Shown here piece after piece: positions 35,029-49,171 of a DNA stretch of 64,000 bases. The DNA is from a virus: IMG/VR virus record IMGVR_UViG_3300011417_000001; one strand, 5' to 3'. The position numbers and the translations under genes are program-made. How positions within the stretch are numbered: the first letter of the stretch is position 1; each line of letters begins with the position of its first letter. Under the pieces are notes generated by a model, which had not been told where the DNA came from, ran no database searches, and was given only the letters and a program-made list of their open reading frames with translations.

Positions 35029-35174
35029 TTTATTTTAAATTGAATGCAGTAATAAAGCCACCCAATATTAAGATAACAGAAATATTTATCATAATAAAAA
35101 GATATGAACGGTAAAAGATTTAGGTTTTTCCAATCCCCGTCTTCTCTTGGCTTGTATAAATTATATACCTTCAT
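35025..35174 (-). CDS. Hypothetical micro-protein
   Basis: 49-aa ORF found by hand. It bridges the 142-nt gap exactly, with an ATGA overlap at each end. Confidence 0.3.
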   Translation of the reverse strand: MKVYNLYKPREDGDWKNLNLLPFISFYYDKYFCYLNIGWLYYCIQFKIK

Positions 35175-35731: not shown

Positions 35732-36024
35732 TTATTAAAATGATTTTTATTGACATAAAAACATCGGTGTGGCCCTCGTGCATCATAAGCGCTTCCGTAA
35801 AAACAATCCCAACCCGCTTGTTTAAATTCTTTAATTACATCATCCATTATACCTTCAAAGGCATAGGCTGGAGTTATTATGATGGCATGATAGTTTTCAT
35901 TTTTAACAAATATTTCTTCATGCCAATCTTGCTTTAATAATTTTTCATTAAAGTATTCTATTGGAGTGTTCAGTCTGGGGTTGCTATTAATCTCGACTGG
36001 TTTTATAGGATGTATTTGGTTCAT
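35728..36024 (-). CDS. Hypothetical protein
   Basis: 98-aa ORF coupled on both sides. Confidence 0.4.
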   Translation of the reverse strand: MNQIHPIKPVEINSNPRLNTPIEYFNEKLLKQDWHEEIFVKNENYHAIIITPAYAFEGIMDDVIKEFKQAGWDCFYGSAYDARGPHRCFYVNKNHFNK

Positions 36025-36860
36025 ATCGGATAAAGTTTACCTTCTATTTCTACTGTTTGGGTGTTTGCCGGGAAGCCTAAGTTTTCCGGGTGCCCGATTG
36101 ATACTATTCTTCCTTTGCTCAGCCAGCTTGCAACTGCCCCTGTTGAGCTTCGGTTCTTGATGTAGTGGGCGCATTTTGAGAATAGCCATACCATTAACAC
36201 AGGTTGCAGCCCTCTTTCATATCCTGATACATTTGAGAATCTTTCAGGGTTATCTTTCGCTCCGTACGGGGCTTGGATAAATTCTTCAACTACAAACGCC
36301 TGCGGATATTTATTTAACAGCGGGTCAAGTATTCCCTGCTCTTCGGCTGTACACATTATTCGCATATCATCCGTTAATACTTCATCAATGAATGGGAAGT
36401 AGGTTTCTATCGATATTCGCGGCCTGCCGTCAAGATAAATATCTGTGCCCCTCCATGTTATTCCGATTGTTTTTGTAAAGTCAATTTTGTATTTGTCAAC
36501 AATCGCCCGCCCTCTTTGATTCGTTGCTTCGTTAAATTTTAAATGCCTTTGATAGTATTCTTTTATAACGCTTAGCGGCTGCGCCATAAAGCCTACCGGA
36601 GTGGGGTCTGCCCAGTTTTCCCATGTCCATGTTTCTTCCCGTTTTTTATTTCCGAATGGCTGCTCAAAAAACCAGTCATAGGCGTTAGGAATTTTCTGAA
36701 ATTTAGCATCATCGTTGTAAGATTGTACCGATAATCCTTTCGGCCAGTTGATGTATGCCGTGTGGCCGGTTTGCTCGGCTGCCCACATTTGCCAATAGTG
36801 GCAGTACAGCCACGTGGTGAGGGTGCTGTGTATATCGTTTTTCTCTAAGAATATATTCAT
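36021..36860 (-). CDS. Hypothetical protein, possibly a glycosyltransferase
   Basis: 279-aa ORF in the sugar-enzyme cluster. IGITWRGTDIYLDGRPR is reminiscent of fucosyltransferase-type GTs. This is a weak call. Confidence 0.3.
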   Translation of the reverse strand: MNIFLEKNDIHSTLTTWLYCHYWQMWAAEQTGHTAYINWPKGLSVQSYNDDAKFQKIPNAYDWFFEQPFGNKKREETWTWENWADPTPVGFMAQPLSVIKEYYQRHLKFNEATNQRGRAIVDKYKIDFTKTIGITWRGTDIYLDGRPRISIETYFPFIDEVLTDDMRIMCTAEEQGILDPLLNKYPQAFVVEEFIQAPYGAKDNPERFSNVSGYERGLQPVLMVWLFSKCAHYIKNRSSTGAVASWLSKGRIVSIGHPENLGFPANTQTVEIEGKLYPI

Positions 36861-37141
36861 TTTTCTTTAAACACTTTTACTGGTTCATCATGATTTCCTC
36901 CCATTGGTTCACATTTATATCTTAAATTTATTCTTTTACAATTTATGCAGTATTGAATGTATTGCCATCTTTCAACTGAAAATGGTGAAACACGATAAAC
37001 AAAATATTTTGCTGCCCCGCAATTCCAGCACTCCTCTAATGAATCGTTTTGGTTGAGACTTTTTTCTTTTTCTAATTCAAAGCATGTCTCTAATTCCTGT
37101 TCAGAGATTTCTTTTGATAATAAAAGTTCGCGTATTTTCAT
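36857..37141 (-). CDS. Zinc-ribbon protein
   Basis: CWNCG ... CINCK, i.e. two CxxC pairs. Confidence 0.4.
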   Translation of the reverse strand: MKIRELLLSKEISEQELETCFELEKEKSLNQNDSLEECWNCGAAKYFVYRVSPFSVERWQYIQYCINCKRINLRYKCEPMGGNHDEPVKVFKEK

Positions 37142-37827
37142 ATCGGTGTAAGTATTTCGCCATCGTGCTTAATTTCCGGATAAACAAATCCGGTTTCTTG
37201 ATTGATTGTTTTCCAGCTACCGTGAAAACCGAATGGGCTGCTGTGGTGATAGTGTGGATTCGGATTGCCTCCCTGACCGAAGTGTGACGCTGTTTTCAGG
37301 TCTGCAAACTTAAATCCTTCCGCCTCTAACTGATGACGGTGGGTGATTGCTATCTCGCCATCCTCGTACATCCTTATGTTTTTTTGAAGGTTGTGCGCCT
37401 GTTCGTTCGTGCCATCCCACTGGGGATATTTTTCGGAAACAGATTGCATGATTGATTTGCTGCGAAACGAAAATCCACCTACTCCCATAACGTCATACTG
37501 ATTAAACAGTGCTCCAATGTAGTCGTACTGCTCCCATTTTTTGTTCCATGCCTGCGGGTTGAGTATCCACCCGTCTCGTTGAACTATCAGTATGTGTTTG
37601 GTGTCTACATACTCGTGAATTTTTTTTAGCATGAATACCGAGTAATGAATAAGTGTTTTTACTTCCTTTATTTCTACTTTATGAGGATAGTCGGTGGAGA
37701 AGTGTGTAAGAAGTTTTATGTCTGCGAAGTCACAGAGTGCCTTGCACCGTTCTACTACTTTTATGGCGCGGTCAATGTTGAGGCAGTCAACAATTAACAG
37801 GGTGGTGGTGTTTAAATTTGGTTTCAT
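37138..37827 (-). CDS. DUF5672-family protein (putative glycosyltransferase)
   Basis: ILIVQRDGWILNPQAWNKKWEQYDYIGALF matches my recollection of the DUF5672 core. The start was chosen at the ATG that forms an ATGA overlap with the upstream stop. Confidence 0.5.
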   Translation of the reverse strand: MKPNLNTTTLLIVDCLNIDRAIKVVERCKALCDFADIKLLTHFSTDYPHKVEIKEVKTLIHYSVFMLKKIHEYVDTKHILIVQRDGWILNPQAWNKKWEQYDYIGALFNQYDVMGVGGFSFRSKSIMQSVSEKYPQWDGTNEQAHNLQKNIRMYEDGEIAITHRHQLEAEGFKFADLKTASHFGQGGNPNPHYHHSSPFGFHGSWKTINQETGFVYPEIKHDGEILTPI

Positions 37828-38564
37828 CTTTTTTGTTTCCATCCGAGCGACCTCTTGCGGTTTATTTCTTTGATGCGGTCGCGGTAGTAGTCCCGGTAGT
37901 CCCACGCCATTCCCTGTGACAAAAATATTGCTTCTTTGTTGAGCGGTGTCGCTTCGCTAACGTAGTGAATCCATCCCTCCGGGTCAGTGTAGTTGAATCC
38001 GTGTTTGTGCATGATTAGGCTGAGGATGGTTTGGTCGTGGCGGGTTCCAAATATTCGCGGGTCGTCTCCTAATTGGTTGTCTTCGTTCTTCCAGCTTCCT
38101 TTGAAAAGATGAATGTTCTCAAAGTACTCTTTAAAGATTGTTTGCCCTGCCGGGTGGTCGAAGTTTAGCCCTACAATACATGCCATCGCGTGAGGTATGG
38201 AGTACGCCTCTTCGCGGGTGTAGCCGAACGCTTTTAGCTGCTCATCACTTGACCAGTTACCAGTGCTCCATCCGTTTCTAAGAACAAAGTAGCCGTCTTG
38301 TTTTATCTTGTCAAATATCGGGGTAGGGTTGTGCTGTGCCCACACTGCGGCATCGCACCACACTACCATCTTGTGCAGTCCCTCGTCTTTAATATCTTTA
38401 AAGGCGTAGGGCTTAAACGCGTAAGGTATTTGGTTATGTTCGGGGCATCCCTTTGGATAGGTGTTTTCCCATACCCGGTGGCGCAGTCCGTACTTGGAGA
38501 TGGACTCAACCAGCCTCTTTTGCCCTTTTGGATGCCAAAACTTTACCGCTACGTTTATGAACAT
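37824..38564 (-). CDS. Hypothetical protein, possible nucleotide-sugar transferase
   Basis: 246-aa ORF within the cluster. No firm motif was found. Confidence 0.35.
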   Translation of the reverse strand: MFINVAVKFWHPKGQKRLVESISKYGLRHRVWENTYPKGCPEHNQIPYAFKPYAFKDIKDEGLHKMVVWCDAAVWAQHNPTPIFDKIKQDGYFVLRNGWSTGNWSSDEQLKAFGYTREEAYSIPHAMACIVGLNFDHPAGQTIFKEYFENIHLFKGSWKNEDNQLGDDPRIFGTRHDQTILSLIMHKHGFNYTDPEGWIHYVSEATPLNKEAIFLSQGMAWDYRDYYRDRIKEINRKRSLGWKQKR

Positions 38565-39139
38565 TTTCCTATTAGTAGATTTTCATCATTAAACAAAATC
38601 TCTTTATATCCCGCAGCTAAGTTAAGTATTTCTTCTTTCCTTCCATCATGCTCGATGCACCATAGTTTACAGTTTTGAAACTCGCTGAACATCTTTAAGA
38701 ATAGCTCTGCGCTGGTTGCTTCGGTGTCTATGTTAATGAAGTCGAAAATGTCTCCGTACTTTTCTTTTAGTGCAGCAAAGTGAATGCCGTAAACTTGGGT
38801 AGGCTTGAACGGCACATGACTCCACTTTGCTACATGGTCGGTGTTGGTAGTTGATAGAAAATCCCCGTTGGATTCGTAGAATGTCTGCCATCCTGCGGTA
38901 ATTCCTACCACCGCATTTACTATCTCGGTATTTAGTCCTTCCATGTTTTTTATCAGTGCCGGGATAAGATGTGCCGAGGGCTCTACCATCACGCCTTTCC
39001 ATCCATTTAAGAGTAGCTGGTAGGAGTTGGACATTACCTTGCCATCCGCACTACCGATATCCAGCAGCGTTCCTGTGCTTATGTTTTGTTCCTGAAAGTA
39101 GTTCAAGATGGAGTGTTCTTCGGTTTTTTGCGAGTACAT
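38555..39139 (-). CDS. FkbM-type SAM-dependent methyltransferase
   Basis: LLDIGSADGKVMSN is glycine-loop-like, and the size fits the family. Confidence 0.55.
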   Translation of the reverse strand: MYSQKTEEHSILNYFQEQNISTGTLLDIGSADGKVMSNSYQLLLNGWKGVMVEPSAHLIPALIKNMEGLNTEIVNAVVGITAGWQTFYESNGDFLSTTNTDHVAKWSHVPFKPTQVYGIHFAALKEKYGDIFDFINIDTEATSAELFLKMFSEFQNCKLWCIEHDGRKEEILNLAAGYKEILFNDENLLIGKCS

Positions 39140-39146
39140 CTTTCTA

Positions 39147-39509
39147 TTAATTATTGCGGTGTTTCATGTAGGCGTATGGCCGGGCATCATAGCCCTGTAT
39201 GCCATATTTCTTTTTTAGTGATTCATATTTTATAAACTCTTCTCTTGTCATAAAATCTAATATGGGAAAAAATAATTCAGTTAATTCCTTGCCTAATATT
39301 TTTCCCGATTTTTCCTTAACTTTACTAATCTCTTTATATGGTGTTGTAGATTTTCCATCAATTAATTTTTCTCCAAACATTACTTCTTTTACCGTTACTC
39401 CAAGTACTTTCATGTTCAAGTCTGATGGCCTGCCAATTAGATAATAGAATCTATAAAACTCTTTTTCTAAATTCCAAATTTCCTGACACTGCTCTTCCGT
39501 CCACTTCAT
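39147..39509 (-). CDS. Hypothetical protein
   Basis: 120-aa ORF overlapping the upstream stop. Confidence 0.4.
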   Translation of the reverse strand: MKWTEEQCQEIWNLEKEFYRFYYLIGRPSDLNMKVLGVTVKEVMFGEKLIDGKSTTPYKEISKVKEKSGKILGKELTELFFPILDFMTREEFIKYESLKKKYGIQGYDARPYAYMKHRNN

Positions 39510-39925
39510 TTGTTTTTATTGTCTTTCATTGATTCATACATTATTCGGGCAATCTTTTCAATCGTCCGGTTTAATCCTCTTGGGGTCAAATATATTTTCT
39601 CTTGTGAAGTAACATAGGTTCTTATAAGGTCTTCTGTTTTTCTATCGCTTTCGGCTTTTGTTCTATTATTCTCTACCTGAAATAAAACATCCTTTGCAAG
39701 TTTTAAGGCTTCAATTTGCTTTATGTTATTATATTTTCTAATGTAGTTGGCTAATCTTATTATGCTTTTTATATCAGATGTTTCAAACAAATAGTGGTCT
39801 TCTATTGTTTCTGCTTGTGCTGGCGTCATGGCACTTTTCTCTTTTAAATGTTTTCTATAACTAACGGCTAAATAGGTTAAATATACAATCAGAATTAATA
39901 TAAATATTGCTATATTATAATTCAT
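39506..39925 (-). CDS. Single-pass membrane protein
   Basis: N-terminal transmembrane segment IAIFILILIVYLTYLAV. Confidence 0.4.
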   Translation of the reverse strand: MNYNIAIFILILIVYLTYLAVSYRKHLKEKSAMTPAQAETIEDHYLFETSDIKSIIRLANYIRKYNNIKQIEALKLAKDVLFQVENNRTKAESDRKTEDLIRTYVTSQEKIYLTPRGLNRTIEKIARIMYESMKDNKNK

Positions 39926-40470
39926 TTATTTCTACGATACTGATAAAAATACATTGGCTGGTCTATAAAATACTCGGTTTTCAGCAGCCCTGATTCTGCC
40001 ATTCTTTTTGCAAAGTCGGCATCTTCTCCAAAGGATGTTTCGGGGAATTTTACCTGTCTTGCCAGCTCAACTTTCATCGGGTTGAGGTGGTTGGGTGGGC
40101 GGAAGTAGATGCCTTTTTGCTCGGTGTATTTTAGTCCAAGTTTATGAATGAATGTCTCCGGCTTTTTGCCCTCTGAGGTTATGATTCCTTTAAAGGTTAC
40201 TACGTCCACCCCTTTGTTTATTCCTTCGTGCACTCGTTCTACGTAGTCTGAGCTTACTAAGTCATCATCGTCTATGAATGCACAGTATTCGGTCTCACAT
40301 TTGTCAAGCAAGTGGTTTCTCTTGTGGCCGATGGTTTCTTCGCCCCTGTCTTCAAGGATGAATATCTTAGTATCTATCTGCTTGCACTGCCCACCGATAA
40401 CGTCTATCAGCCGGTCCAGAAAGTGCTTGCGGCTTGTCAGGGTTGGGATGAGGATGGTTAGCTTACACAA
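39922..40470 (-). CDS. Glycosyltransferase family 2 (GT-A)
   Basis: LTILIPTLTSRKHFLDRL at the N-terminus and a CAFIDDDD DxD motif. Confidence 0.7.
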   Translation of the reverse strand: MCKLTILIPTLTSRKHFLDRLIDVIGGQCKQIDTKIFILEDRGEETIGHKRNHLLDKCETEYCAFIDDDDLVSSDYVERVHEGINKGVDVVTFKGIITSEGKKPETFIHKLGLKYTEQKGIYFRPPNHLNPMKVELARQVKFPETSFGEDADFAKRMAESGLLKTEYFIDQPMYFYQYRRNK

Positions 40471-41146
40471 AATCTTTTGCCTTTCTTTGCTCGTAAATCT
40501 TTTTTCCTAAATCCCATGCTGATTGGGAGTTTTCGCGGTTGTAGGTGTGGTCTTTCGGGTTTTTGCCGTTGATGAAGTGCCGGTGTTCAAACTTTAAATC
40601 AGAGTAAATCAGCCAGCCGTTTTTCTTACAAACATCGTGCAGCTCGTTGTCGGCAAACATGGAGAAGTAGCGCGGGTTGTAGATGTGTCCGAGTTTCTCG
40701 TAAATGCCTCTGCTTATTATTGGTAGTGTCATGCAGCCGGACTGGTTGCCGTTGATGCAGTCGTCTATCATTATTGCGAAGTTTTCTGCCGGTTCGTTAA
40801 GGTGCGTTGTAACTAATCCGCTTAATCTGCCTGAAGTGTTTTTTATTTCAACATCCCAATCTTTCGGGCATCCAAAATCATCGCTAACCACTATTAAACA
40901 ATCTCCTGTTGATAACTTGGCTGCGTTGTTTACCGCGTCTATCATGCTGCGATTTTCATTGATTAAAAGTTTTATGCCGGTTTCTTTGAACTGGCTTTTG
41001 TAGCAGTCTATCTGCGCATCGTCTTTGTCAATGCTTAGTATGTACTCGTACTGGTTCTGGTCGGAGGCATTGCCCATCCATTCTACAAAGGCTTTGTATG
41101 CCATTTGGCAGCGTTCGCGGCTCGGATGTATCAAGGTGTAGCGCAT
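40463..41146 (-). CDS. GT-A-fold glycosyltransferase-like protein
   Basis: YILSIDKDD and LIVVSDDF (DxD-like) motifs. Confidence 0.5.
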   Translation of the reverse strand: MRYTLIHPSRERCQMAYKAFVEWMGNASDQNQYEYILSIDKDDAQIDCYKSQFKETGIKLLINENRSMIDAVNNAAKLSTGDCLIVVSDDFGCPKDWDVEIKNTSGRLSGLVTTHLNEPAENFAIMIDDCINGNQSGCMTLPIISRGIYEKLGHIYNPRYFSMFADNELHDVCKKNGWLIYSDLKFEHRHFINGKNPKDHTYNRENSQSAWDLGKKIYEQRKAKDFV

Positions 41147-41147
41147 T

Positions 41148-41354
41148 TTACTGAACTCTTACAAGTATTGTGTGCCCGTTTTCGGTGTAGGTGCGGAATT
41201 TCCAGTTGAGTTTGCGGGTTTGCGCCTGCCGCTTTGCGCAGTTTAAGGCTACGCTTGAGGTAATTGTATCAAGTACTCTCCTTTCGCCCAACTCCATATT
41301 GTAAAAATGGTGTATGGGTTTCCGGCCTCTATTTTCCGGGATGACTATTTCCAT
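41148..41354 (-). CDS. Hypothetical protein (first gene of the minus-strand sugar-enzyme operon)
   Basis: 68-aa ORF 8 nt downstream of a -7 box. Confidence 0.4.
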   Translation of the reverse strand: MEIVIPENRGRKPIHHFYNMELGERRVLDTITSSVALNCAKRQAQTRKLNWKFRTYTENGHTILVRVQ

Positions 41355-41361
41355 GATGGCG

Positions 41362-41369
41362 CAAAGATA
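41362..41369 (-). promoter_or_regulatory. -7 box TATCTTTG (minus strand)
   Basis: The plus strand reads CAAAGATA. This is one of two divergent promoters in the 41355-41560 intergenic region. Confidence 0.45.
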
Positions 41370-41468
41370 TAAATAAATATTTAATTAAATGATAAAAAAA
41401 TAAATAAAAATAATTGCCTTGATTTTCAAACACTTGCTATATTATTGCAATATTTCTTTTATTATTAC

Positions 41469-41498
41469 TTGTACATATTAAAATAAGCATTATGTTTG
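41469..41498 (+). promoter_or_regulatory. Bacteroidota-type promoter (cTTG, 19 nt, TATGTTTG)
   Basis: The -7 box is at 41491-41498 and TTG at 41469-41471. Confidence 0.5.
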
Positions 41499-41559
41499 CA
41501 CCGTATTTATAAACAATCATTCACTAATTAATCAAACAATTTAAAAACGTATCAATAAA

Positions 41560-41754
41560 ATGAACACAAATTTTGAAAACATTTCCGCGCTTCGTAAAGC
41601 TGCATCAGGTAAACAGTTATTTGTTAAATGCGGGCAGTTGCCTGTATTGATTAAAAAGTCAGCAATTAACCGCGCTTTACTTGGGCAAAAGTTTTACGCC
41701 TCTGCCTTTGCTACTGACCGCGCACTGTATATTAATTCTATTCAATTATATTAA
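41560..41754 (+). CDS. Hypothetical protein
   Basis: 64-aa ORF downstream of the promoter. Confidence 0.35.
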   Translation: MNTNFENISALRKAASGKQLFVKCGQLPVLIKKSAINRALLGQKFYASAFATDRALYINSIQLY

Positions 41755-41953
41755 TATGAAAGTTGAAATTAACACTTTCTCTATGAATAGGGGGATATCA
41801 CCTTTAAACACTTAGAAAAAATGAAGAATGAAAAAGAGAAAAACGACAAAAAAATTGAAAATCCCGAATTAAAAAAACAATGTGTAACTATACATGGGGA
41901 TTCGGGGCATTATTATTTATCCAAAGGGATAAGCCATATTAACGGTATTCCTG

Positions 41954-42517
41954 TTATACAAACGACATCGCCAGACGAAGTTCCCCCCTTGGAACAGATG
42001 GAGGATTAATATCATCTATTATTCCCTTTTGCAAAGCAAACTTTACGTCCTTGCTTTCACCTTGATTAAACAAAGTATTAATTTCTTCTGCTGTTAATTT
42101 TGTTCTATTAACAAAGGTATCTACTGTTCTACTTTCCATCCCCTCAAGCATACTAAGGTTTTCTTTTATTAGTGCCTTCCCAACGGGGGCATTAAAGCTA
42201 AGAGTATAGCCATGAAATAAAAAAGCAGCGTTTGGGGCTGCGTACCTCTTTCCGCCTGCTATAAAAATAATATTGGCAATAGAATCAATAGTTCCAATAT
42301 TGTGCATTGTTACAGTAAGTTTACTTTGCAGCGAAATCAGAAAATTATACAAAGTAAATCCAGCATCCACATCACCACCTTTTGACGAAATAAAATAATA
42401 TAATTCTGTTGGATTATATTTACTAATTACATCAGTAGTAAATTGGATGAATTTATTAACCTTTACTAAATCAATACCATCATAAAAATTAATGTAAACT
42501 GTTTTTTGATTTTCCAT
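41954..42517 (-). CDS. ClpP-fold serine peptidase (ClpP/S49-like)
   Basis: Aligns by eye with the E. coli ClpP core: YFISSKGGDVDAGFTLYNFL versus YINSPGGSVTAGMAIYDTM. The catalytic Ser context is GTIDSIA and the His context is LFHG. Confidence 0.65.
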   Translation of the reverse strand: MENQKTVYINFYDGIDLVKVNKFIQFTTDVISKYNPTELYYFISSKGGDVDAGFTLYNFLISLQSKLTVTMHNIGTIDSIANIIFIAGGKRYAAPNAAFLFHGYTLSFNAPVGKALIKENLSMLEGMESRTVDTFVNRTKLTAEEINTLFNQGESKDVKFALQKGIIDDINPPSVPRGELRLAMSFV

Positions 42518-42605
42518 TAATAAAAAAATTATTTATATTGAGGGAATGGATAATGGCTGCATTATAATCAATAATGATATTTAATTTATTAAAAAGAAAA
42601 GGTCT

Positions 42606-43160
42606 TCATTGAGTATTAAAATAGTTCTGAATGCCTACACAGTTCATTATTAGCGTTGTTCCAATCATACTTCCATCGCCATCTAAGTTTAGTTTATCGA
42701 AATAACCAATTATAATGTAAAGATATTGCGCATCAGTTAGTTCAGCTAATACAATAGGATGTATGCTTTTTCTTGGAGCTGAAGAATAAAGAGTTTCAAA
42801 GTCTGCACTAAATTTATGATGAGAAATAATATTTGATAAAGCCTGGACTGTTCCATCGACTTTTTCATCAAGTTTGTTATCCATAAATAACGCAACTAAA
42901 TTTTGTGGAGTAAGTTGAGTGTAGTATTCACGAGTACTTTCTGTTCTAACAAAAGCTAATCTATTTGAATCTGTAAATAAAAGCCCGTTTACGCTTGGCG
43001 GTTGGGCTTGCTGTGTTTCTTGTTGAAATTTTTCCTTTATCTCAAAAAAGTCCAATATTGGAATTTCGCATTCTAAGCAACAAGATTTCGGAAGTTCTTT
43101 AACTTCGGTTTCTATAAAATAATTTTTGTCTTTTAAGAATTTTATTAAATCACTGAACAT
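42606..43160 (-). CDS. Hypothetical protein (middle gene of the ATPase operon)
   Basis: The ATG at 43160 lies 1 nt after the ATPase TAA. No family was recognised. It contains FVRTESTREYY and NLDGDGS. Confidence 0.5.
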   Translation of the reverse strand: MFSDLIKFLKDKNYFIETEVKELPKSCCLECEIPILDFFEIKEKFQQETQQAQPPSVNGLLFTDSNRLAFVRTESTREYYTQLTPQNLVALFMDNKLDEKVDGTVQALSNIISHHKFSADFETLYSSAPRKSIHPIVLAELTDAQYLYIIIGYFDKLNLDGDGSMIGTTLIMNCVGIQNYFNTQ

Positions 43161-43161
43161 A

Positions 43162-44493
43162 TTAATTATTAATAAGGTCACGCATTGGTTCAGCTAATTT
43201 CTTATAAATAGGATTTTTATCATTCGTTACATCTATAAAAGTTGTAAATCCACCTTCCGATTTATCGCCAAAATAAAAACGAGTTTTGTTGCTTACTAAT
43301 GTATTTGCCTTACTGAACTTGGAAAGGGCTTGAATCAGATATGGCGAATGTGAACTAATTACAACAGGTATTCCACTTGCGCATAAACTCACAATGATTT
43401 TAGCGTATTCAATTTCCCATTGTGGGTGCAAGTGAACCTCTGGTTCATCTATAATTAATAGCGAGTTTTGATTAACGTATGTAGGATTTAGTAATAATTG
43501 GAGTAATCCTAATGATTTTACTCCAGTAGCTATGTTAAAAGCCCGGACAATAGCTCCATTGTTTTTTATAAAAACTATTCCACCCTCATCACTTTTAAAT
43601 TTCATTTCTCCAGAAATAACAGATTTAATCATTTTAAATATTTCCGCAAAGACATCACTACTAACAGGAGGTGAAATTTTAACTTTTTGAGAAATGTCAG
43701 AATAGTGCAATGGTAAATCCCCTCGCTGATTTCCCGTTGGGGAAAATGCTAAACTATTAGTAATAAATTCTGCCAACTGTACAATCGTTGGCGTTTCAAT
43801 TATTGTTGCATCTTTTAAATAGAACGGATTGTCAACCTTAAATGATGAAGTTAAGTTTTTTTCTACTACAAGTTTAAGAATAGACGTTACCCCTTCTTCA
43901 ATATTAATACTAAGTTCATTGTCTGTTAAAAGTGAATTAATTTGACTTTGAAATATTCTTTGAATGATGTTTCTGTCAAAATATGTTTTATATTTTGCTT
44001 CATCCGTTGGAATATCCTCTAAAGTCTGAATAATTTTTTTTTCGTATATGTTGATATTTAAAATTGCATCTTCAAACCTCTTTTTCGTGGAATCAGGTGC
44101 GTTTACTTTGGTTGATTCTAAATCCTCCTTTACTTTGACAATATATTCCCTAACCTCGTTTGCAAGTTCGGCATTAACTGATTGCACTCTGCCAATGTAA
44201 AGATTTACTAATTTTTGAACTAAAATATTCGTATTAAATTTTTGAGCCTTATCTTGAGTGAATGGAATAACAGACCTATGGGACGAATTAATATTATTTA
44301 AATTGTTCGTTGACTGGGAATACTTCTCGATATTCATAAAAGTATCGGCATTATTTATTGTTTTAATAATCGAATAAATACCTTTGCTTATAAAAGATTT
44401 CCCTGTATCATTGGTTCCGGTTATAACAGTTAGTCCATTAACTTCAATAGAAGCCTCTTTAACAATGCCGAAATTTTTAAAAATGAATTTCAT
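43162..44493 (-). CDS. ABC-type (AAA_15/AAA_21-like) ATPase
   Basis: Walker A GTNDTGKS at aa 26-33, Walker B/D-loop LLIIDEPEVHLHPQW, and H-loop VISSHSPY. Confidence 0.85.
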   Translation of the reverse strand: MKFIFKNFGIVKEASIEVNGLTVITGTNDTGKSFISKGIYSIIKTINNADTFMNIEKYSQSTNNLNNINSSHRSVIPFTQDKAQKFNTNILVQKLVNLYIGRVQSVNAELANEVREYIVKVKEDLESTKVNAPDSTKKRFEDAILNINIYEKKIIQTLEDIPTDEAKYKTYFDRNIIQRIFQSQINSLLTDNELSINIEEGVTSILKLVVEKNLTSSFKVDNPFYLKDATIIETPTIVQLAEFITNSLAFSPTGNQRGDLPLHYSDISQKVKISPPVSSDVFAEIFKMIKSVISGEMKFKSDEGGIVFIKNNGAIVRAFNIATGVKSLGLLQLLLNPTYVNQNSLLIIDEPEVHLHPQWEIEYAKIIVSLCASGIPVVISSHSPYLIQALSKFSKANTLVSNKTRFYFGDKSEGGFTTFIDVTNDKNPIYKKLAEPMRDLINN

Positions 44494-44592
44494 AGTTAAT
44501 TATTGCTGAAAAAATAAAAGTTTACAAAAGTAGCAATAAAAAAATCTCCAACAATTTGACTATCAGACTAATTTTTTTTCATGTTTAGTTGC

Positions 44593-44605
44593 AAGTTTGA
44601 AACTT
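44593..44605. promoter_or_regulatory. 13-bp palindrome AAGTTT-G-AAACTT (candidate operator)
   Basis: Perfect palindrome lying between the divergent ATPase operon and the HTH gene. Confidence 0.4.
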
Positions 44606-44623
44606 ATTACTATCTTTGCACCC

Positions 44624-44794
44624 ATGAAAGACCCATTTATAGGCTTGTTAACAATAAAAAATTATGCTGATAAATTCAGCGTTACCACTTCTTATATATA
44701 TAAATTGATAAAACTAAAAAGGGTACAACCAGTAATAATAGACGGAGTAAAATTTATTGACACCATAAAATTTCCACGCATACCAACCAAATAA
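44624..44794 (+). CDS. HTH_17 / excisionase-family DNA-binding protein
   Basis: LTIKNYADKFSVTTSYIYKLIKLKRVQPVIIDGVKFI fits the MerR-like Xis/AlpA HTH pattern. The ATG lies 6 nt after the -7 box TATCTTTG (44611-44618). Confidence 0.5.
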   Translation: MKDPFIGLLTIKNYADKFSVTTSYIYKLIKLKRVQPVIIDGVKFIDTIKFPRIPTK

Positions 44795-44818
44795 TATTTT
44801 TTTTACCGAAACTGTTTC

Positions 44819-44831
44819 AAGTTTCAAACTT
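44819..44831. promoter_or_regulatory. Second copy of the 13-bp palindrome AAGTTT-C-AAACTT, preceded by the palindrome GAAAC-T-GTTTC
   Basis: Lies 10 nt upstream of the transposase ATG. It is the reverse complement of 44593-44605. Confidence 0.4.
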
Positions 44832-44840
44832 CTAACCACT

Positions 44841-45713
44841 ATGGAAAACACAAAATTTACTTACAAAGAATTTAAAAGAATCTATCCGACTGATACAGCA
44901 TGTTTGCATAAAATATTCATGCTTCGATATGGACATTTAACCCATTGTCCTAAATGCAAAGAACCCGCAGCATGGCGCAGAATTACAACAAGACGTTGTT
45001 ATCAATGCAGACATTGTTACGAGCAATTCTACCCAACAGCTGGAACAGTATTTCACAATGTACGCAGACCTTTAACCGAATACTTTTACATTATGTTTTT
45101 ATTTACAACCACTCGTCATGGTGTGGCAGCAAAAGAAATTGAAAGGCAATTAGGTTTGCATTATAAAACCGCTTTCAGAATGTGTCATGTAATCCGCAGG
45201 TTAATGGATAAAATAGGAACGGATAAATTAAAAGGATTTGTTGAGGCGGATGAAACCTATTTTACGCATGGTAAAAGGGATGGCGAAAGGGGTAAAACAC
45301 CCGATACACAAACACCCGTATTTGGAATGATAGAAAGAATGGGAAATGTAAAAGCGTTTGCATTGGATGAAGTAAAAAAGCGGGTAATCTTTCCGTTAAT
45401 TGAACAGCACATTGACAAGTTAGCAAAATTAAGCACGGATGAATTTGCGCTTTATACTAATGTTGAAAAGGAGTTAGGCATTAAGCATGGAGCAGTAAAA
45501 CACGCAATGGGACAATATAGAGCGGGCGACATAACCACAAATACTATTGAGGGGTTTTTCGGGCAATTAAAAAGAATGGTTTACGGTGCGCATATTCACA
45601 TCAGCAAAAAGTATTTACAGGTATATGTTTCTGAATGTGTATTCAGATACAACAATAGAAAAAATCAAAATGGAATGTTTGAGGCTATTCTAAAGAATCT
45701 CCCTTTAGCTTAA
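44841..45713 (+). mobile_element. IS1595-family (ISXO2-like) transposase gene; terminal inverted repeats not identified
   Basis: An N-terminal zinc ribbon (CPKCKE...CYQCRHC) is followed by a DDE-type domain (VEADETY, STDEFALY, NTIEGFFGQLKR). Confidence 0.8.
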
Positions 45714-45951
45714 GCATTTCACCAAGCAATTTATCAAAGTCCTCTTTGCCTTTCGGGTTGTAATCCTCGTCTTTCATCTTCTTAAAAAATTCCTCTCGAT
45801 ATACTTTTTTCTTTGAACCCCTCCCACCCTTCTTTTTATAAATAAGATTATCGGGTAAATTAGGTTTGCGTTTTGGTTTCGCTTTTTTCTTTCTCATTTC
45901 AATGCAAAGTACGTAACAACTATTTTTATAAACAAGTGTTTGTACGTCCAT
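45685..45951 (-). CDS. Hypothetical basic protein; start uncertain
   Basis: Lys/Arg-rich ORF convergent with the transposase and overlapping its 3' end. Confidence 0.3.
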   Translation of the reverse strand: MDVQTLVYKNSCYVLCIEMRKKKAKPKRKPNLPDNLIYKKKGGRGSKKKVYREEFFKKMKDEDYNPKGKEDFDKLLGEMLKLKGDSLE

Positions 45952-45996
45952 CTAAATAATTATATTTGTTCCTGTATTTAATTCAAAATTGTTTCA

Positions 45997-46575
45997 ATGA
46001 AAAAAGTATCTGATGATTGGATTGATAGCGAACTAATAAGGCTATCACAAAAAGACGCTGTAATAAAATGTGAACGGTTTATGTTCCGGCTAACAGCAGA
46101 AGCCATAATAGAAGATTCGTTTCGTGTCAGTAATGAGGCTGCGCCAAACCCACCCGGTTATTTTTATGTAAAAAAGAAAATAATTGATTTAGTAAATAAA
46201 GAAAAAATGGGAACAGATGGTGCAATAACTCACCTGCAATTATTGAACAATGATAAATTCAATAAAAAAATACAAGACGCAACCATTGAAGATGTTTATA
46301 ATATTGCTGCGCCAAATTACCCGTTAATGGATTATAAACAGTCTTTCGTTAACGCTGTATTTAATGCTCAAAGCTCATTGTATTGGACAATCAAATACAC
46401 ATTAAAAACAATAAAACTTACTTGTGTTTCATTAAGTGTAATTGATGGAACTGCCATACTATTTTACATTAATCAATTCAATGAAATAAACAGCATGAAA
46501 GTAATTAAGAAGCAAATAACCGATGTGGAACTATTTGTACCTACTAAGAAGATAGGTAATAAGGTCATCAGTTAA
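45997..46575 (+). CDS. Hypothetical protein
   Basis: 192-aa ORF in the AT-rich island. Confidence 0.45.
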   Translation: MKKVSDDWIDSELIRLSQKDAVIKCERFMFRLTAEAIIEDSFRVSNEAAPNPPGYFYVKKKIIDLVNKEKMGTDGAITHLQLLNNDKFNKKIQDATIEDVYNIAAPNYPLMDYKQSFVNAVFNAQSSLYWTIKYTLKTIKLTCVSLSVIDGTAILFYINQFNEINSMKVIKKQITDVELFVPTKKIGNKVIS

Positions 46576-46740
46576 ATGTTTGTTTTGCTCAAACCAATTA
46601 TAAAAAAACAAATCCGGCTTATCCGTTGGAGTTAAAGAATTAAATAATAAAATGCTTGAACATTTCTCTTTAGAATTTAGCAACGTAAGCAAGCCCTTTT
46701 TGATTCTCTTTTTTTCTTTTGTATTCATATTTAAACCCAT
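46531..46740 (-). CDS. Hypothetical protein
   Basis: 69-aa ORF. A minus-strand -7 box TATCTTTG (plus strand 46829-46836) lies about 90 nt upstream. Confidence 0.35.
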   Translation of the reverse strand: MGLNMNTKEKKRIKKGLLTLLNSKEKCSSILLFNSLTPTDKPDLFFYNWFEQNKHLTDDLITYLLSRYK

Positions 46741-46934
46741 TTATAATTTTCATTTCAAATCTTTTTTTGCGGGTTTAAATTCTGTTAAGTTTTATCTTTC
46801 AAGTGTTCGTACGTGACAATCACCTTCACAAAGATATAATTTAGAGGGACAAACCCGAATATTCAAACTAAGCAAACAAGCTACAAAAATAGTAAAAAAT
46901 AAATTTAACAATCTAACTATAAATAAATAATAAT

Positions 46935-47306
46935 ATGAAAACAAAAATAAATTTAAGTATTGACCGGGCGCAGGAGCTTGCCAATATGCTACACACTAAC
47001 ATTTTTGAGGGCGTTAATGCAGCCGATGAAATTGTGTTTCGCTGTAATTGCATGACAATAAAACAGGCATCTGAAAAGGTTAAATTCGCTTTTGGGGATG
47101 GTGCGTATTTTATTAAAGTGGTGCAAGTGCCGGTTAAAAAAGTTAGTCAGGATGACCGCAACCACGAAGCGCAGCAATTAATTTATGAAGTATTAGAACA
47201 TATTTCAGCCGGGCGAATGAATATAGACCTGATGAAACAGAAACTAATTCAGGCAGCCAAAAATTTACCCTGCAAACTTCATTCAGGTTTATCTAAATAT
47301 AATTAA
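46935..47306 (+). CDS. Hypothetical protein
   Basis: 123-aa ORF. Confidence 0.45.
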   Translation: MKTKINLSIDRAQELANMLHTNIFEGVNAADEIVFRCNCMTIKQASEKVKFAFGDGAYFIKVVQVPVKKVSQDDRNHEAQQLIYEVLEHISAGRMNIDLMKQKLIQAAKNLPCKLHSGLSKYN

Positions 47307-47377
47307 TCCAATAACTCAAAGAACACAATTCAAAAATACAAATTAATAATTAAATAACAAAGCTATGACACAAAAAA

Positions 47378-47620
47378 ATGAAAACAGAAAAAATTGAAAA
47401 AAATTACATTTTGGCTTATAAGTGCCGTAAAATGTCAAGGGTTCCTAAGTCGTTTCCTTATGCCGGGGCGGTTCAGGTACTCGATGCGTGGACAACTAAT
47501 AGCTCATACGAAAAAATGACGGGCTTTATCAAAGACGCTTTAGAACTTGGAGCCACTCATATATTCTGGATTCCTGCCGGAGCTACACAGGGAACACTTG
47601 TACCAATTTCAAAATCTTAA
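47378..47620 (+). CDS. Hypothetical protein
   Basis: 80-aa ORF. Confidence 0.4.
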   Translation: MKTEKIEKNYILAYKCRKMSRVPKSFPYAGAVQVLDAWTTNSSYEKMTGFIKDALELGATHIFWIPAGATQGTLVPISKS

Positions 47621-47792
47621 TTCACTCAACGAATGAAAAGACTAAGACTTTTAAAATTATACAACATGGAGGACTGGCAAACCGGCAGATGTTCTTTTAA
47701 GCAATACTCCCGGTCTTTTACAATCCGATACTATCTTAGAAAACTGAAAAGATTAAGAATTAAAATAATATGGTAAACATAAAATTAAAAAT

Positions 47793-48092
47793 ATGGAAAA
47801 ACTAAAATTAAATGATAGTGGGTTTGAATCCGAAAAGTATCGAAGTTTCCTTGTTACTGACGATGATAATTTAACGTTGCGGGCGCAAGTTTATGGCAAC
47901 ACTTTAGAAGAATCAAAAGCTAATGCCGAACGCCTTGTTAAGTGCTGGAATATGCACGATGATTTAGTAAGGGCAACTAAACTGCTTTTGGGGGCGTTAA
48001 TGCTATTAACTGATAACGGGGATGACCTTACAGCGGAAGGGCTTATAAATGTTGAGGAAATAAAAAAAATATTAAAACAAGATAACGAATAA
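47793..48092 (+). CDS. Hypothetical protein
   Basis: 99-aa ORF. AERLVKCWNMHDDLVRA resembles a widespread small phage protein motif. Confidence 0.4.
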   Translation: MEKLKLNDSGFESEKYRSFLVTDDDNLTLRAQVYGNTLEESKANAERLVKCWNMHDDLVRATKLLLGALMLLTDNGDDLTAEGLINVEEIKKILKQDNE

Positions 48093-48106
48093 CTAAAATT
48101 AAAACT

Positions 48107-48436
48107 ATGAAAAAAACATTTTGGATTTCTTTTGCAACTGATGAAACAGGAAATTTAGGCTGCTGTATTGTGGATGCGAAAAATGAAACGGATGCTATTA
48201 AAAAAACGTGGAAGCTGAAAATTAATCCGGGCGGTCAGGCGATGCTTACCGAATACGCATTGAATGAAAGCGCTAAAATTGAAATAGCTAAGTGGGGGAA
48301 AAATAAACTTATCAGCCCCGAAGATTTAATGAATGACGGGTACAAAAAGCTGAAAGATTTGGATTTAGATTTGCAGGATAAAATTACAAACCTTACCCGC
48401 GTTTCAGGGGTGTGTGAAAAACATAACAAAAAATGA
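48107..48436 (+). CDS. Hypothetical protein
   Basis: 109-aa ORF. Confidence 0.4.
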   Translation: MKKTFWISFATDETGNLGCCIVDAKNETDAIKKTWKLKINPGGQAMLTEYALNESAKIEIAKWGKNKLISPEDLMNDGYKKLKDLDLDLQDKITNLTRVSGVCEKHNKK

Positions 48437-48742
48437 AAAACTTCTCTGAATCTTTACTTTGCTTGGCTCTGTTCCGGGCTGATAATTGGTACGAAAAATA
48501 TTGTTGCATTGCATTTTGGGGAACGGTTATTTCGTTGTTTACATTTATAATATTTGAATTATGAAATCAATTTTTTATTCGTGTGTGCATCCAAAAATCC
48601 GGGAGCAACTACTTTGGTTAGATGTTTCGCCATACCATTGCGGGGGCGCGGCTATGCCTGCCTCTTGGTGGCTCGCTTACTTTGGAAAAGAGGTGGAAAC
48701 ATTTACGTGTTCGGTTTGGCTGGATGCGGATGTTTCAAGTAA

Positions 48743-49171
48743 CTAAACTTCTTTTATTATTATGCCGTCAATAGCTTCCATTAATTTCTTTTTTATTCTG
48801 TAAACAGGGAGCGTTCGGGTAAATTTACTCTTTACGTCCTCAACTACATATTCGTCCGGTTCAGGAATATCATTTGCGCCCATGCTTAAAGTTGTATAAA
48901 CAAAATCGGCAATGTATTTACAAATTACAAAACCATTTACTGATAAAATAAATTCCTTTTGGCATTGCAGGTTTGTTATTAGTCCGGCTTTTTCCATCAT
49001 GGTTAATTCTAAATACCTGGCTGCCTCTTTTTTGCTGTCAAACTTTCGCCCGTGTGCCTCAACTACCTTGTTCCGGTACTTGTTCGGCTTTTCTGTTACC
49101 ACTGTCCGGCTGTGGCTTAGTTCTTTTTCCTGATGCGCCCGAAGTTCGGCTGATGTCCATTTAACGCCCAT
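48743..49171 (-). CDS. DUF1064-family protein (putative nuclease/resolvase)
   Basis: NKYRNKVVEAHGRKFDSKKEAARYLELTMMEKAGLITNLQCQKEFIL matches the DUF1064 core pattern. Confidence 0.6.
   Translation of the reverse strand: MGVKWTSAELRAHQEKELSHSRTVVTEKPNKYRNKVVEAHGRKFDSKKEAARYLELTMMEKAGLITNLQCQKEFILSVNGFVICKYIADFVYTTLSMGANDIPEPDEYVVEDVKSKFTRTLPVYRIKKKLMEAIDGIIIKEV

What the first reader, a model, noticed from the sequence alone, without database searches (positions are those of the whole stretch)
41954..44493. ABC-type ATPase, unknown 184-aa protein and ClpP-fold peptidase operon: candidate undescribed anti-phage or abortive-infection module
Three co-oriented minus-strand genes sit behind their own -7 box (TACTTTTG).

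- The first encodes a 443-aa ATPase with an N-terminal Walker A (GTNDTGKS), LLIIDEPEVHLHPQW and SSHSPY. This is the AAA_15/AAA_21 ABC-like class used by PARIS AriA, Septu PtuA, Gabija GajA and OLD nucleases.
- The second is a 184-aa ORF whose ATG lies 1 nt after the ATPase stop. I recognise no family for it. It has FVRTESTREYY and, later, NLDGDGS. That E...DxD arrangement is faintly reminiscent of TOPRIM/DUF4435 (AriB-like), but the resemblance is weak.
- The third lies 88 nt further on. It encodes a 187-aa ClpP-fold peptidase that keeps the ClpP Ser (GTIDSIA) and His (LFHG) contexts.

The trio lies in a visibly AT-rich island beside an IS1595 transposase, about 22 kb from the head genes. ATPase-protease pairs exist in defence (ietAS uses a subtilisin-type protease). 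I know of no described system that pairs this ATPase class with a ClpP-fold protease.
Basis: partly seen in the sequence, partly recalled or inferred. Interest (0 to 1): 0.72.

Follow-up and report, generated by a model that had tools for sequence, protein, structure and literature searches.

The report
Two-gene defence-type module plus unrelated ClpP
The three genes are real, but they are not one new ATPase-protease system: the ATPase and the small protein form a two-gene pair of an already known anti-phage kind, here with a degenerate nuclease motif, and the ClpP-like gene is an unrelated bacterial gene that sits next to them only in this phage.

Summary
Three co-oriented minus-strand ORFs (443, 184 and 187 aa) lie in a 31-33% GC island of a ~64 kb temperate phage (whole window 40% GC), beside an intact IS1595 transposase.

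The three-gene interpretation fails.
- The 184-aa protein belongs to a family of ~160-230 aa proteins that almost always directly follow an orthologous ABC (AAA_15/AAA_21) ATPase.
- The ATPase scores best against PADLOC HEC-02A and PD-T4-4_A. Both are ATPase plus PD-(D/E)xK nuclease defence systems.
- Canonical relatives of the partner carry D...ExK...K and weakly match HEC-02B models. Their fold hits are PD-(D/E)xK nucleases, not TOPRIM.
- The window copy belongs to a subclade that has lost these residues (N58, R72, E74, G103), so a canonical nuclease mechanism is doubtful.
- The ClpP-like protein belongs to a highly conserved (60-66% identity) family of stand-alone ClpP paralogues scattered across bacterial phyla. 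None of 41 genome loci has the ATPase or partner nearby. None of 80 ATPase loci has a ClpP, apart from a copy of this same phage.
- It is not at the prohead-protease position.

Verdict: a divergent HEC-02/PD-T4-4-type two-gene module carried as phage accessory cargo, plus an independently captured ClpP paralogue. Interest is modest.

The parts
44525..44532 (-). Bacteroidota-type -7 promoter motif TACTTTTG, 31 nt upstream of the ATPase ATG. It is a candidate promoter of the module.
   Evidence: Read directly. It is the only intergenic TAnnTTTG on this strand between 41900 and 44700. The motif frequency is about 0.67 per kb per strand, so this is positional evidence only.
43162..44493 (-). ABC-type (AAA_15/AAA_21) ATPase, 443 aa. 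Walker A is G26..G31-K32-S33, Walker B is D349-E350 and the H-loop is H382. It is the proposed sensor/motor of the two-gene module.
   Evidence: Pfam AAA_21 3.8e-13 and AAA_15 1.1e-11. PADLOC HEC-02A 2.2e-30; PD-T4-4_A 4.2e-29, and 8.6e-25 for the full-length match; AriA 9e-16. phrog_14430 5e-54, full length. Full-length orthologues (36-52% identity) sit next to partner homologues.
42606..43160 (-). 184-aa partner protein with a PD-(D/E)xK-like (NERD/HEC-02B-like) fold. In this copy the canonical D...ExK...K..D/E residues are replaced (N58, R72, E74, G103). K100, K42, C28 and C174 are conserved.
   Evidence: No hit in Pfam, PADLOC, PHROGs or NCBIfam for this copy. 39 homologues in the exhaustive HMMER search. 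Found directly downstream of the ATPase in 61 of 83 loci. Motif table. HEC-02B hits for canonical members. AF2 model pLDDT 91.5. Foldseek results.
41954..42517 (-). 187-aa ClpP-fold serine peptidase with a complete Ser79-His102-Asp157 triad and a short N-terminus. It is a neighbouring, independently acquired gene, probably co-transcribed here, and not a conserved part of the module.
   Evidence: Pfam CLP_protease 54 bits. The family is 60-66% identical across phyla, with 77% mean column identity. Contexts are stand-alone. Nearest structure is 9UXT, PpClpP1. No promoter or terminator motif in the 88-nt gap.
44841..45713 (+). Intact IS1595-family transposase (Zn ribbon plus DDE), divergent from the ATPase gene. 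It is a possible vehicle of the cassette.
   Evidence: Pfam DDE_Tnp_IS1595 3e-31 over the full profile, and Zn_ribbon_IS1595. IS1595-type transposases also lie directly upstream of ATPase orthologues in L070, L071 and L074.
41200..48900 (.). Low-GC (about 33%) accessory island of the phage genome. It contains the cassette, the IS and several ORFs with no family match (the 192-aa and 65-aa ORFs were scanned).
   Evidence: Composition profile and per-gene GC.

Best explanation
The locus holds two separate things.

(1) A two-gene module: an ABC ATPase followed, 1 nt later, by a ~180-aa protein with a PD-(D/E)xK (NERD-like) fold. It is a divergent relative of the validated HEC-02 and PD-T4-4 anti-phage systems of the 'nuclease-NTPase' kind. 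A temperate Bacteroidota-type phage carries it as accessory cargo in a low-GC island next to an IS1595 transposase.

Inferred mechanism, by analogy with those systems: the ATPase and the partner form a complex. The ATPase senses an infection cue from a competing phage, and ATP binding or hydrolysis switches on the partner. In canonical relatives the partner cuts nucleic acid through D58, E72-x-K74 and K100. This would protect the lysogen or exclude rival phages.

In this phage's subclade the acidic and lysine catalytic residues are replaced. The partner is therefore probably not a canonical metal-dependent nuclease, and the output step is unknown.

(2) A ClpP-fold peptidase gene that sits downstream only in this phage. 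It comes from a strongly conserved, patchily distributed family of stand-alone bacterial ClpP paralogues with a short N-terminus and an intact Ser-His-Asp triad. It is probably read through from the module's promoter, but it is functionally independent. The nearest solved structure, PpClpP1, forms rings on its own and with the canonical ClpP and does not bind ClpX, so this protein plausibly forms ClpP-type rings, possibly mixed with the host ClpP.

Shown: gene structure, family membership, co-occurrence statistics and the motif loss. Inferred: defence function, complex formation, co-transcription and the role of the ClpP paralogue.
For: ATPase family:
- Best PADLOC hits are HEC-02A (2.2e-30) and PD-T4-4_A (4.2e-29).
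- HEC-02 is an ABC ATPase plus a NERD-like (D/E/Q)xK nuclease. Both genes are required for defence.
- PD-T4-4 is a P-loop ATPase plus a PD-(D/E)xK nuclease.

Partner family:
- Partner homologues P0122, P0146 and P0123 each directly follow a 434-451 aa AAA_21 ATPase, with no ClpP.
- Those ATPases are full-length orthologues of the window ATPase, at 47% and 36% identity.
- In 83 loci analysed (80 metagenome ATPase loci plus L009, L013 and L015), a partner homologue overlaps or abuts the ATPase stop in 61. Most of the other loci lack room or have a 160-235 aa ORF in that place.
- 49 of 61 partners carry D58/E72/K74 and nearly all keep K100. The window, L015, L066, L067, L068, L073 and L074 do not carry D58/E72/K74.
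- Canonical members hit five HEC-02B models at E 7e-5 to 1e-2, in some cases over nearly the whole profile.
- Top Foldseek hits of a canonical member are MUS81, Can2, XPF/Hef, cap-snatching endonucleases, HamA and Bse634I, all PD-(D/E)xK. For the window model the best hit is EcoO109I.
- Another human-gut phage (MT835532) has the same pair with D...ExK and no ClpP.

Phage context:
- The phage has a tyrosine integrase at 2846-3736.

ClpP-like family:
- 41 genome loci across Bacteroidota, Binatia, Chlorobi and Proteobacteria have no ATPase or partner and no conserved neighbour. Some sit among housekeeping genes.
- Close relatives were not found in IMG/VR; the three hits are 28-38% identical.
Against: - No experiment shows defence by this clade.
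- The window partner itself hits no defence model. The link to HEC-02B rests on weak HMM hits of distant relatives and on non-significant Foldseek matches (E about 0.01-1).
- The catalytic signature is lost in the window's subclade, so the analogy with a nuclease effector may not hold.
- Neighbours of family members are only modestly enriched in defence genes. A handful of Lamassu, MADS, PDC and DRT hits were found among 135 neighbour proteins, without a background control.
- The 88-nt gap without a promoter or terminator motif means the ClpP-like gene is probably expressed with the pair in this phage. A phage-specific functional link cannot be excluded.
Confidence: 0.68

Rival explanations
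1. One reading: a genuine three-gene system in which the ClpP-fold peptidase is the effector, or a co-effector, of the ABC ATPase. In its refined form, the peptidase replaces the nuclease activity that the partner has lost in this lineage.
For: The three genes are co-oriented. There is no TAnnTTTG and no terminator-like site in the 88-nt gap. The partner's catalytic residues are lost, which leaves the pair without an obvious effector. The trio is identical in all contigs of this phage.
Against: 0 of 41 ClpP-family genome loci have the ATPase or partner. 0 of 80 ATPase loci have a ClpP, apart from the same phage. Other members of the degenerate subclade (L015, L066, L068, L074, P0122) have an opposite-strand or distant gene downstream and no ClpP. 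One contig of this phage (L069) carries a 43-bp frameshifting deletion inside the ClpP-like gene while the ATPase and partner are intact. The ClpP family is 60-66% identical to stand-alone chromosomal genes, so it has not co-evolved with the module.
Confidence: 0.07
2. Anti-defence decoy: the phage-borne ATPase plus pseudo-nuclease pair mimics host HEC-02/PD-T4-4-like immunity and poisons it. It could do so by forming mixed inactive complexes or by titrating the trigger, which would help the phage rather than the host.
For: Loss of D58, E72, K74 and D/E103 together with retention of the fold and of K100. The pair is located in a phage genome.
Against: The degenerate subclade has at least about 20 representatives at the 50%-identity cluster level. 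It also occurs on contigs with no recognisable phage genes, for example L015 next to a Ribonuc_L-PSP gene. The ATPase motifs are fully intact and its orthologues are under constraint. Temperate phages commonly carry true defence modules; PARIS, for example, is often virus-encoded (abstracts).
Confidence: 0.1
3. Transposition accessory module: the ATPase and the PD-(D/E)xK-fold protein work with the IS1595-type DDE transposase, loosely like TnsC and TnsA with TnsB in Tn7, rather than in defence.
For: An IS1595-type transposase lies directly upstream, on the same strand, of ATPase orthologues in L070, L071 (6-nt gap) and L074, and next to the window ATPase. Divergence of the transposases parallels that of the ATPases among L070, L071 and L074: 78% versus 63%, and 38-39% versus 38-39%.
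Against: Most family loci with upstream sequence have no transposase. The orientation differs in the window, where the genes are divergent. No terminal inverted repeats enclosing transposase plus module were found. The closest characterised relatives are validated defence systems.
Confidence: 0.05
4. The ClpP-like protein is the phage's prohead (head-maturation) protease.
For: Weak hits to PHROG head-maturation protease families (phrog_94, 9e-16) and to the NCBIfam ClpP-related head-maturation domain (50 bits).
Against: The NCBIfam score is far below its cut-off (50 versus 120 bits), and canonical ClpP models score similarly. The gene lies 22 kb from the portal, in a low-GC island. The slot next to the portal is occupied by a 306-aa protein with weak head-morphogenesis/protease PHROG hits. 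Homologues at 60-66% identity are stand-alone chromosomal genes beside tpiA-, folP- and alaS-like genes, with no phage genes. Only distant relatives (28-38% identity) turned up in IMG/VR.
Confidence: 0.03

Closest known systems
HEC-02 (PADLOC 'Hma-embedded candidate 02'; Payne et al., bioRxiv 10.1101/2024.01.29.577857)
   Same: It has a two-gene architecture: an ABC ATPase followed by a ~170-185 aa PD-(D/E)xK (NERD-like) protein. The window ATPase's best PADLOC hit is HEC-02A. Canonical members of the partner family hit HEC-02B profiles of the same length and carry the ExK signature.
   Different: The ATPase is about 100 aa longer than the HEC-02A profiles and matches them in two pieces. The window partner hits no HEC-02B model. 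It has R72-T-E74 where the (D/E/Q)xK signature should be, and N58 in place of the upstream Asp. It is carried by a phage rather than embedded in an Hma system.
PD-T4-4 (Vassallo et al. 2022; E. coli)
   Same: It pairs a P-loop/ABC-like ATPase with a PD-(D/E)xK nuclease. PD-T4-4_A models match the window ATPase nearly as well as HEC-02A, one of them over residues 1-390.
   Different: No member of the partner family hits a PD-T4-4_B model. The catalytic motif is lost in the window copy.
PARIS (AriA/AriB), Septu (PtuA/PtuB), Gabija (GajA), OLD
   Same: They use the same broad ABC ATPase class (weaker PADLOC hits, 1e-10 to 1e-16). PARIS is often phage- or satellite-encoded, and all follow sensor-ATPase plus nuclease logic.
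   Different: Their effectors are TOPRIM or HNH. The window partner shows no TOPRIM/DUF4435 or HNH signal in Pfam, PADLOC or Foldseek.
Non-canonical ClpP paralogues (P. plecoglossicida ClpP1, PDB 9UXT; P. aeruginosa ClpP2)
   Same: 9UXT is the nearest solved structure to the 187-aa protein (E 2.5e-12, better than any canonical ClpP). Both have the ClpP fold and a short N-terminus. In PpClpP1 the missing N-terminal loops abolish ClpX binding, and the protein forms homo- and hetero-tetradecamers.
   Different: The window family keeps a full Ser-His-Asp triad, whereas PpClpP1 has Ser-His-Pro. It has a conserved C-terminal tail (PSVPxGxIHLAMxFV). It forms its own tightly conserved family, about 32% identical to a Pseudomonas homologue (L057).

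Membership tests
HEC-02 (ABC ATPase + NERD-like nuclease) | ATPase component matches HEC-02A | tested here: met
   PDLC04214 HEC-02A at 2.2e-30 is the best of 107 PADLOC hits. The match is in two stretches, and PD-T4-4_A scores almost the same.
HEC-02 (ABC ATPase + NERD-like nuclease) | Partner matches HEC-02B (NERD-like PD-(D/E)xK fold) | tested here: inconclusive
   The window protein has no PADLOC hit at E<=1. Five canonical relatives hit five HEC-02B models at 7e-5 to 1e-2. Top Foldseek hits are PD-(D/E)xK nucleases but are not significant.
HEC-02 (ABC ATPase + NERD-like nuclease) | (D/E/Q)xK catalytic signature in the partner | tested here: not met
   The window copy has N58, R72-T-E74 and G103. 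49 of 61 family members have D, ExK and K.
HEC-02 (ABC ATPase + NERD-like nuclease) | Both genes adjacent and jointly required for phage defence | not testable with these tools
   Adjacency is met: there is a 1-nt gap, conserved in 61 of 83 loci. The requirement for defence needs an experiment.
PD-T4-4 | PD-T4-4_A ATPase and PD-T4-4_B nuclease both present | tested here: not met
   The A component matches (4.2e-29, and 8.6e-25 over the full length). No partner-family member hits any PD-T4-4_B model.
PARIS (AriA + AriB) | TOPRIM/DUF4435 effector next to the ATPase | tested here: not met
   There is no DUF4435/TOPRIM hit in Pfam or PADLOC for the window protein or for 32 relatives. No TOPRIM structure ranks near the top of the Foldseek hits.
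ClpP (peptidase S14, Pfam PF00574) | ClpP fold and Ser-His-Asp triad | tested here: met
   PF00574 scores 54.4 bits against a cut-off of 20.2. S79 and H102 are invariant and D157 is nearly invariant in 41 sequences.
Canonical ClpP (clpP equivalog, partner of ClpX/ClpA) | Equivalog-level similarity and N-terminal axial loops for unfoldase docking | tested here: not met
   NCBIfam ClpP models score 18-42 bits against cut-offs of 228-361. The Pfam match starts at profile position 43 for residue 33, so the N-terminus is about 10 residues shorter. The nearest structure is the N-truncated PpClpP1. The absence of the loops is inferred, not modelled.
ClpP-related prohead protease | Family score above cut-off and position in the head module next to portal and capsid genes | tested here: not met
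   NF045542 scores 50 bits against a cut-off of 120. The gene is 22 kb from the portal. Its homologues are chromosomal stand-alone genes.
Proposed new ATPase + unknown + ClpP three-gene system | Co-conservation of the three genes in unrelated genomes | tested here: not met
   Co-occurrence is 0 of 41 (ClpP side) and 0 of 80 apart from the same phage (ATPase side).

The most novel reading that the evidence does not exclude
The subclade to which the window pair belongs is a functionally distinct type: an ABC ATPase paired with a PD-(D/E)xK pseudo-nuclease that has lost D58, E72, K74 and D/E103 but keeps K100. It would then signal or act by a non-nucleolytic route. In this phage that route could be recruitment of the co-transcribed ClpP-fold peptidase as effector, or the pair could act as a decoy that disarms host HEC-02-like immunity.
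Probability: 0.12. Interest if true: 0.65.

Novelty: new variant of a known kind. Interest (0 to 1): 0.3.

Why it matters
It removes a tempting but unsupported claim of a new ATPase-ClpP defence system. It places the cassette within the growing class of ABC-ATPase/PD-(D/E)xK 'nuclease-NTPase' systems.

Three smaller points remain useful:
1. A sizeable subclade of these pairs has lost the nuclease signature while staying conserved. This is a natural test case for how such systems signal.
2. Temperate Bacteroidota-type phages carry these modules as cargo, sometimes beside IS1595 transposases.
3. A very strongly conserved, patchily distributed family of short stand-alone ClpP paralogues has no assigned role.

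Tried and rejected
- **TOPRIM/DUF4435 for the 184-aa protein.** Rejected. There are no Pfam or PADLOC hits for it or for 32 relatives, and Foldseek gives PD-(D/E)xK-type hits instead.
- **Prohead protease.** Rejected on score, position and the contexts of homologues.
- **Composite transposon or IS cargo with clear ends.** Searches for inverted repeats around the window cassette and around the transposase-plus-module units in L070, L071 and L074 gave only AT-rich noise.
- **k-mer-seeded protein search with the 184-aa protein.** It found only the protein itself. The exhaustive HMMER search was needed.
- **The search for related loci with the partner alignment.** It failed because no stretch was conserved enough. 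The ATPase alignment was used instead.
- **Megablast of the island against INPHARED phages.** No match.
- **IMG/VR scans.** The ClpP protein, the ClpP alignment and the ATPase alignment gave only distant hits.
- **Search for a related phage lacking the island.** The one IMG/VR relative (L149) ends at the island boundary and is uninformative.
- **PDB sequence search with the partner profile.** Nothing relevant.
- **BFVD fold search.** Nothing significant.
Full report
**1. Observation**

The three minus-strand ORFs exist exactly as described:
- an ATPase at 43162-44493 (443 aa);
- a 184-aa ORF at 42606-43160, whose ATG lies 1 nt after the ATPase stop;
- a 187-aa ORF at 41954-42517, after an 88-nt gap.

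All quoted peptide motifs are present. Pfam gives AAA_21/AAA_15 for the first ORF, nothing credible for the second and CLP_protease (54 bits, cut-off 20.2) for the third. The neighbouring plus-strand gene at 44841-45713 is an intact IS1595-family transposase.

The three genes have 31-33% GC. The flanking phage genes have 42-44%.

TACTTTTG lies 31 nt upstream of the ATPase ATG. TAnnTTTG occurs about 0.67 times per kb per strand, so only the position of the motif is suggestive.

**2. What the window is**

Identical copies of the region lie on 63-66 kb contigs from many samples. The window encodes:
- a large terminase (31934-33151);
- a portal (17871-19661), followed by a 306-aa protein with weak head-morphogenesis/protease PHROG hits;
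- a tyrosine integrase (2846-3736);
- a C5 methylase and an HNH endonuclease.

It is therefore a temperate phage genome with Bacteroidota-type promoter motifs. It has no close relative in INPHARED, and the IMG/VR scans that used its proteins found only one partial relative, L149.

**3. The ATPase and the 184-aa protein are one conserved two-gene unit**

A word-seeded search found only the protein itself. An exhaustive HMMER search of 1.8 billion cluster representatives found 39 homologues of about 180 aa.

- Where context could be read (P0122, P0146, P0123), the homologue directly follows a 434-451 aa AAA_21 ATPase and no ClpP follows it.
- Those ATPases are full-length orthologues of the window ATPase, at 47% and 36% identity.
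- A metagenome scan with the ATPase alignment returned 80 loci.
- With HMMs built in the sandbox, a partner homologue overlapping or abutting the ATPase stop was found in 61 of 83 loci (the 80 plus L009, L013 and L015). Nearly all the others either end too soon or have a 160-235 aa ORF in the same place.
- A human-gut phage record (MT835532) has the same pair.

**4. What kind of unit it is**

The best PADLOC hits of the ATPase are HEC-02A (2.2e-30) and PD-T4-4_A (4.2e-29; one model matches residues 1-390). AriA, PtuA, GajA and Old score much lower.

HEC-02 is an experimentally validated two-gene system: an ABC ATPase plus a NERD-like PD-(D/E)xK nuclease with a (D/E/Q)xK signature, both genes being required. 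PD-T4-4 is likewise a P-loop ATPase plus a PD-(D/E)xK nuclease.

The partner family shows the corresponding signature in most members: S-x-D58, F-I-E72-x-K74, K100 and D/E103. 49 of 61 carry D58, E72 and K74, and nearly all keep K100. Five canonical members hit five HEC-02B profiles of the same length (E 7e-5 to 1e-2), two of them over nearly the whole profile.

AlphaFold models of the window protein (pLDDT 91.5) and of a canonical member (pLDDT 90.3) have a strand/helix order compatible with the PD-(D/E)xK core. No Foldseek match is significant. The top of the list for the canonical member is nevertheless almost entirely PD-(D/E)xK nucleases: MUS81, Can2, XPF/Hef, cap-snatching endonucleases, HamA and Bse634I. 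For the window model the best hit is EcoO109I. No TOPRIM structure ranks near the top of either PDB list.

**5. A real peculiarity**

The window protein belongs to a subclade in which the catalytic positions are replaced together. This subclade makes up most of the 27 non-canonical sequences of alignment A1 and includes L015, L066, L067, L068, L073 and L074.

The replacements are D58 to N/S/T, E72 to Q/R, K74 to E or variable, and D/E103 to G (except in L067, which keeps D103). K100, K42, C28 and C174 stay conserved. The ATPase motifs remain intact.

The canonical nuclease output is therefore doubtful for this copy. Members of the subclade have no conserved third gene downstream.

**6. The ClpP-like gene is independent**

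It belongs to a family of 185-189 aa proteins that are 60-66% identical to it, with 77% mean column identity and an invariant Ser and His and nearly invariant Asp.

- 41 genome loci span Flavobacterium, Chryseobacterium, Chitinophaga, Binatia, Chlorobiaceae, delta- and beta-proteobacteria and others.
- None has the ATPase or the partner within 6 kb.
- There is no conserved neighbour. Some loci lie among genes that read like housekeeping genes (a tpiA-like product with the AGNWKMN motif, folP-like and alaS-like products).
- Conversely, the ClpP HMM hits only L009 and L069 among the ATPase loci, and both are this same phage.
- Close relatives were not found in IMG/VR; the three hits are 28-38% identical.
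- Scores against prohead-protease models are far below cut-off and no better than against cellular ClpP.
- The nearest solved structure is PpClpP1 (9UXT). This is an N-terminally truncated paralogue that does not bind ClpX and forms mixed rings with canonical ClpP.
- One contig of this phage (L069) carries a 43-bp frameshifting deletion inside the gene, next to an intact ATPase 3' end and partner gene.

The 88-nt gap contains no -7 motif and no terminator-like site. Read-through transcription in this phage is therefore likely, but it is inferred.

**7. Context of the module elsewhere**

135 neighbour proteins from 46 loci are heterogeneous. They include some mobile-element signatures: IS1595 transposase three times, ParA-like proteins three times, and P2-type scaffold and terminase twice each. 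A handful hit defence families (Lamassu LmuA/B, MADS, PDC-S11, PDC-M48B, DRT, AriA). This gives weak support for a defence or mobile-element association. No background control was run.

**8. Conclusion**

Its central interpretation, a new three-gene ATPase-ClpP system, fails its own refutation test.

What is there:
- a divergent HEC-02/PD-T4-4-type ABC ATPase plus PD-(D/E)xK-fold pair with a degenerate active site, carried as cargo by a temperate phage;
- an unrelated, captured ClpP paralogue.

Defence or superinfection exclusion is the most likely role of the pair (confidence about 0.5-0.6). The output mechanism in this subclade is open.

Noticed in passing
window 44841-45713; L070:235-2583; L071:4057-6356; L074:2990-6284: IS1595-family transposase genes recur next to the ATPase-partner module. 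In L070, L071 (6-nt gap) and L074 the transposase is directly upstream on the same strand. Its divergence parallels that of the ATPase: 78% versus 63%, and 38-39% versus 38-39%. The module may be IS1595 passenger cargo, or the three proteins may be functionally linked. No enclosing inverted repeats were found.
   Followed up: partly
window 42124-42166 (relative to L069): A 1826-bp metagenome contig (L069) is otherwise 100% identical to the window. It lacks 43 bp inside the ClpP-like gene, which gives a frameshifted 172-aa product (P0002), while the ATPase 3' end and the partner gene are intact. This could be a natural pseudogenised variant or an assembly artefact.
   Followed up: partly
L018-L058 and L001-L008 (ClpP-like family): The stand-alone ~187-aa ClpP paralogue family is unusually conserved (60-66% identity between distant phyla) yet patchily distributed, with no conserved neighbour. 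In Binatia genomes it sits amid group II introns and transposases. This pattern suggests horizontal spread of a strongly constrained gene of unknown role.
   Followed up: partly
window 44597-44794 (+): A 65-aa ORF lies between the ATPase promoter region and the transposase gene. It has no Pfam hit, is flanked by an 18-nt inverted repeat (44588-44605 / 44819-44836), and its sequence looks like a small DNA-binding (Xis/AlpA-like) protein.
   Followed up: no
window 34465-41146 (-): A long run of co-oriented glycosyltransferase (GT2), methyltransferase-like and DUF5672 genes lies between the terminase and the island (Pfam marks). This is an unusually large sugar- or nucleotide-modification block for a phage.
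   Followed up: no
window 5619-6293 (-): A 224-aa ORF has weak PAS-domain hits (E about 2e-4, just below the gathering scores) near the integrase. A PAS sensor domain would be unusual in a phage.
   Followed up: no
window 16951-17871 (-): The 306-aa protein directly downstream of the portal has only weak hits to PHROG head-maturation protease and head-morphogenesis families (4e-5, 5e-4), and Pfam returned only a weak DUF3196 hit below its cut-off. No major capsid protein was recognised by PHROGs among the ORFs tested, and Pfam was run on only one candidate, so the head module is very divergent.
   Followed up: no
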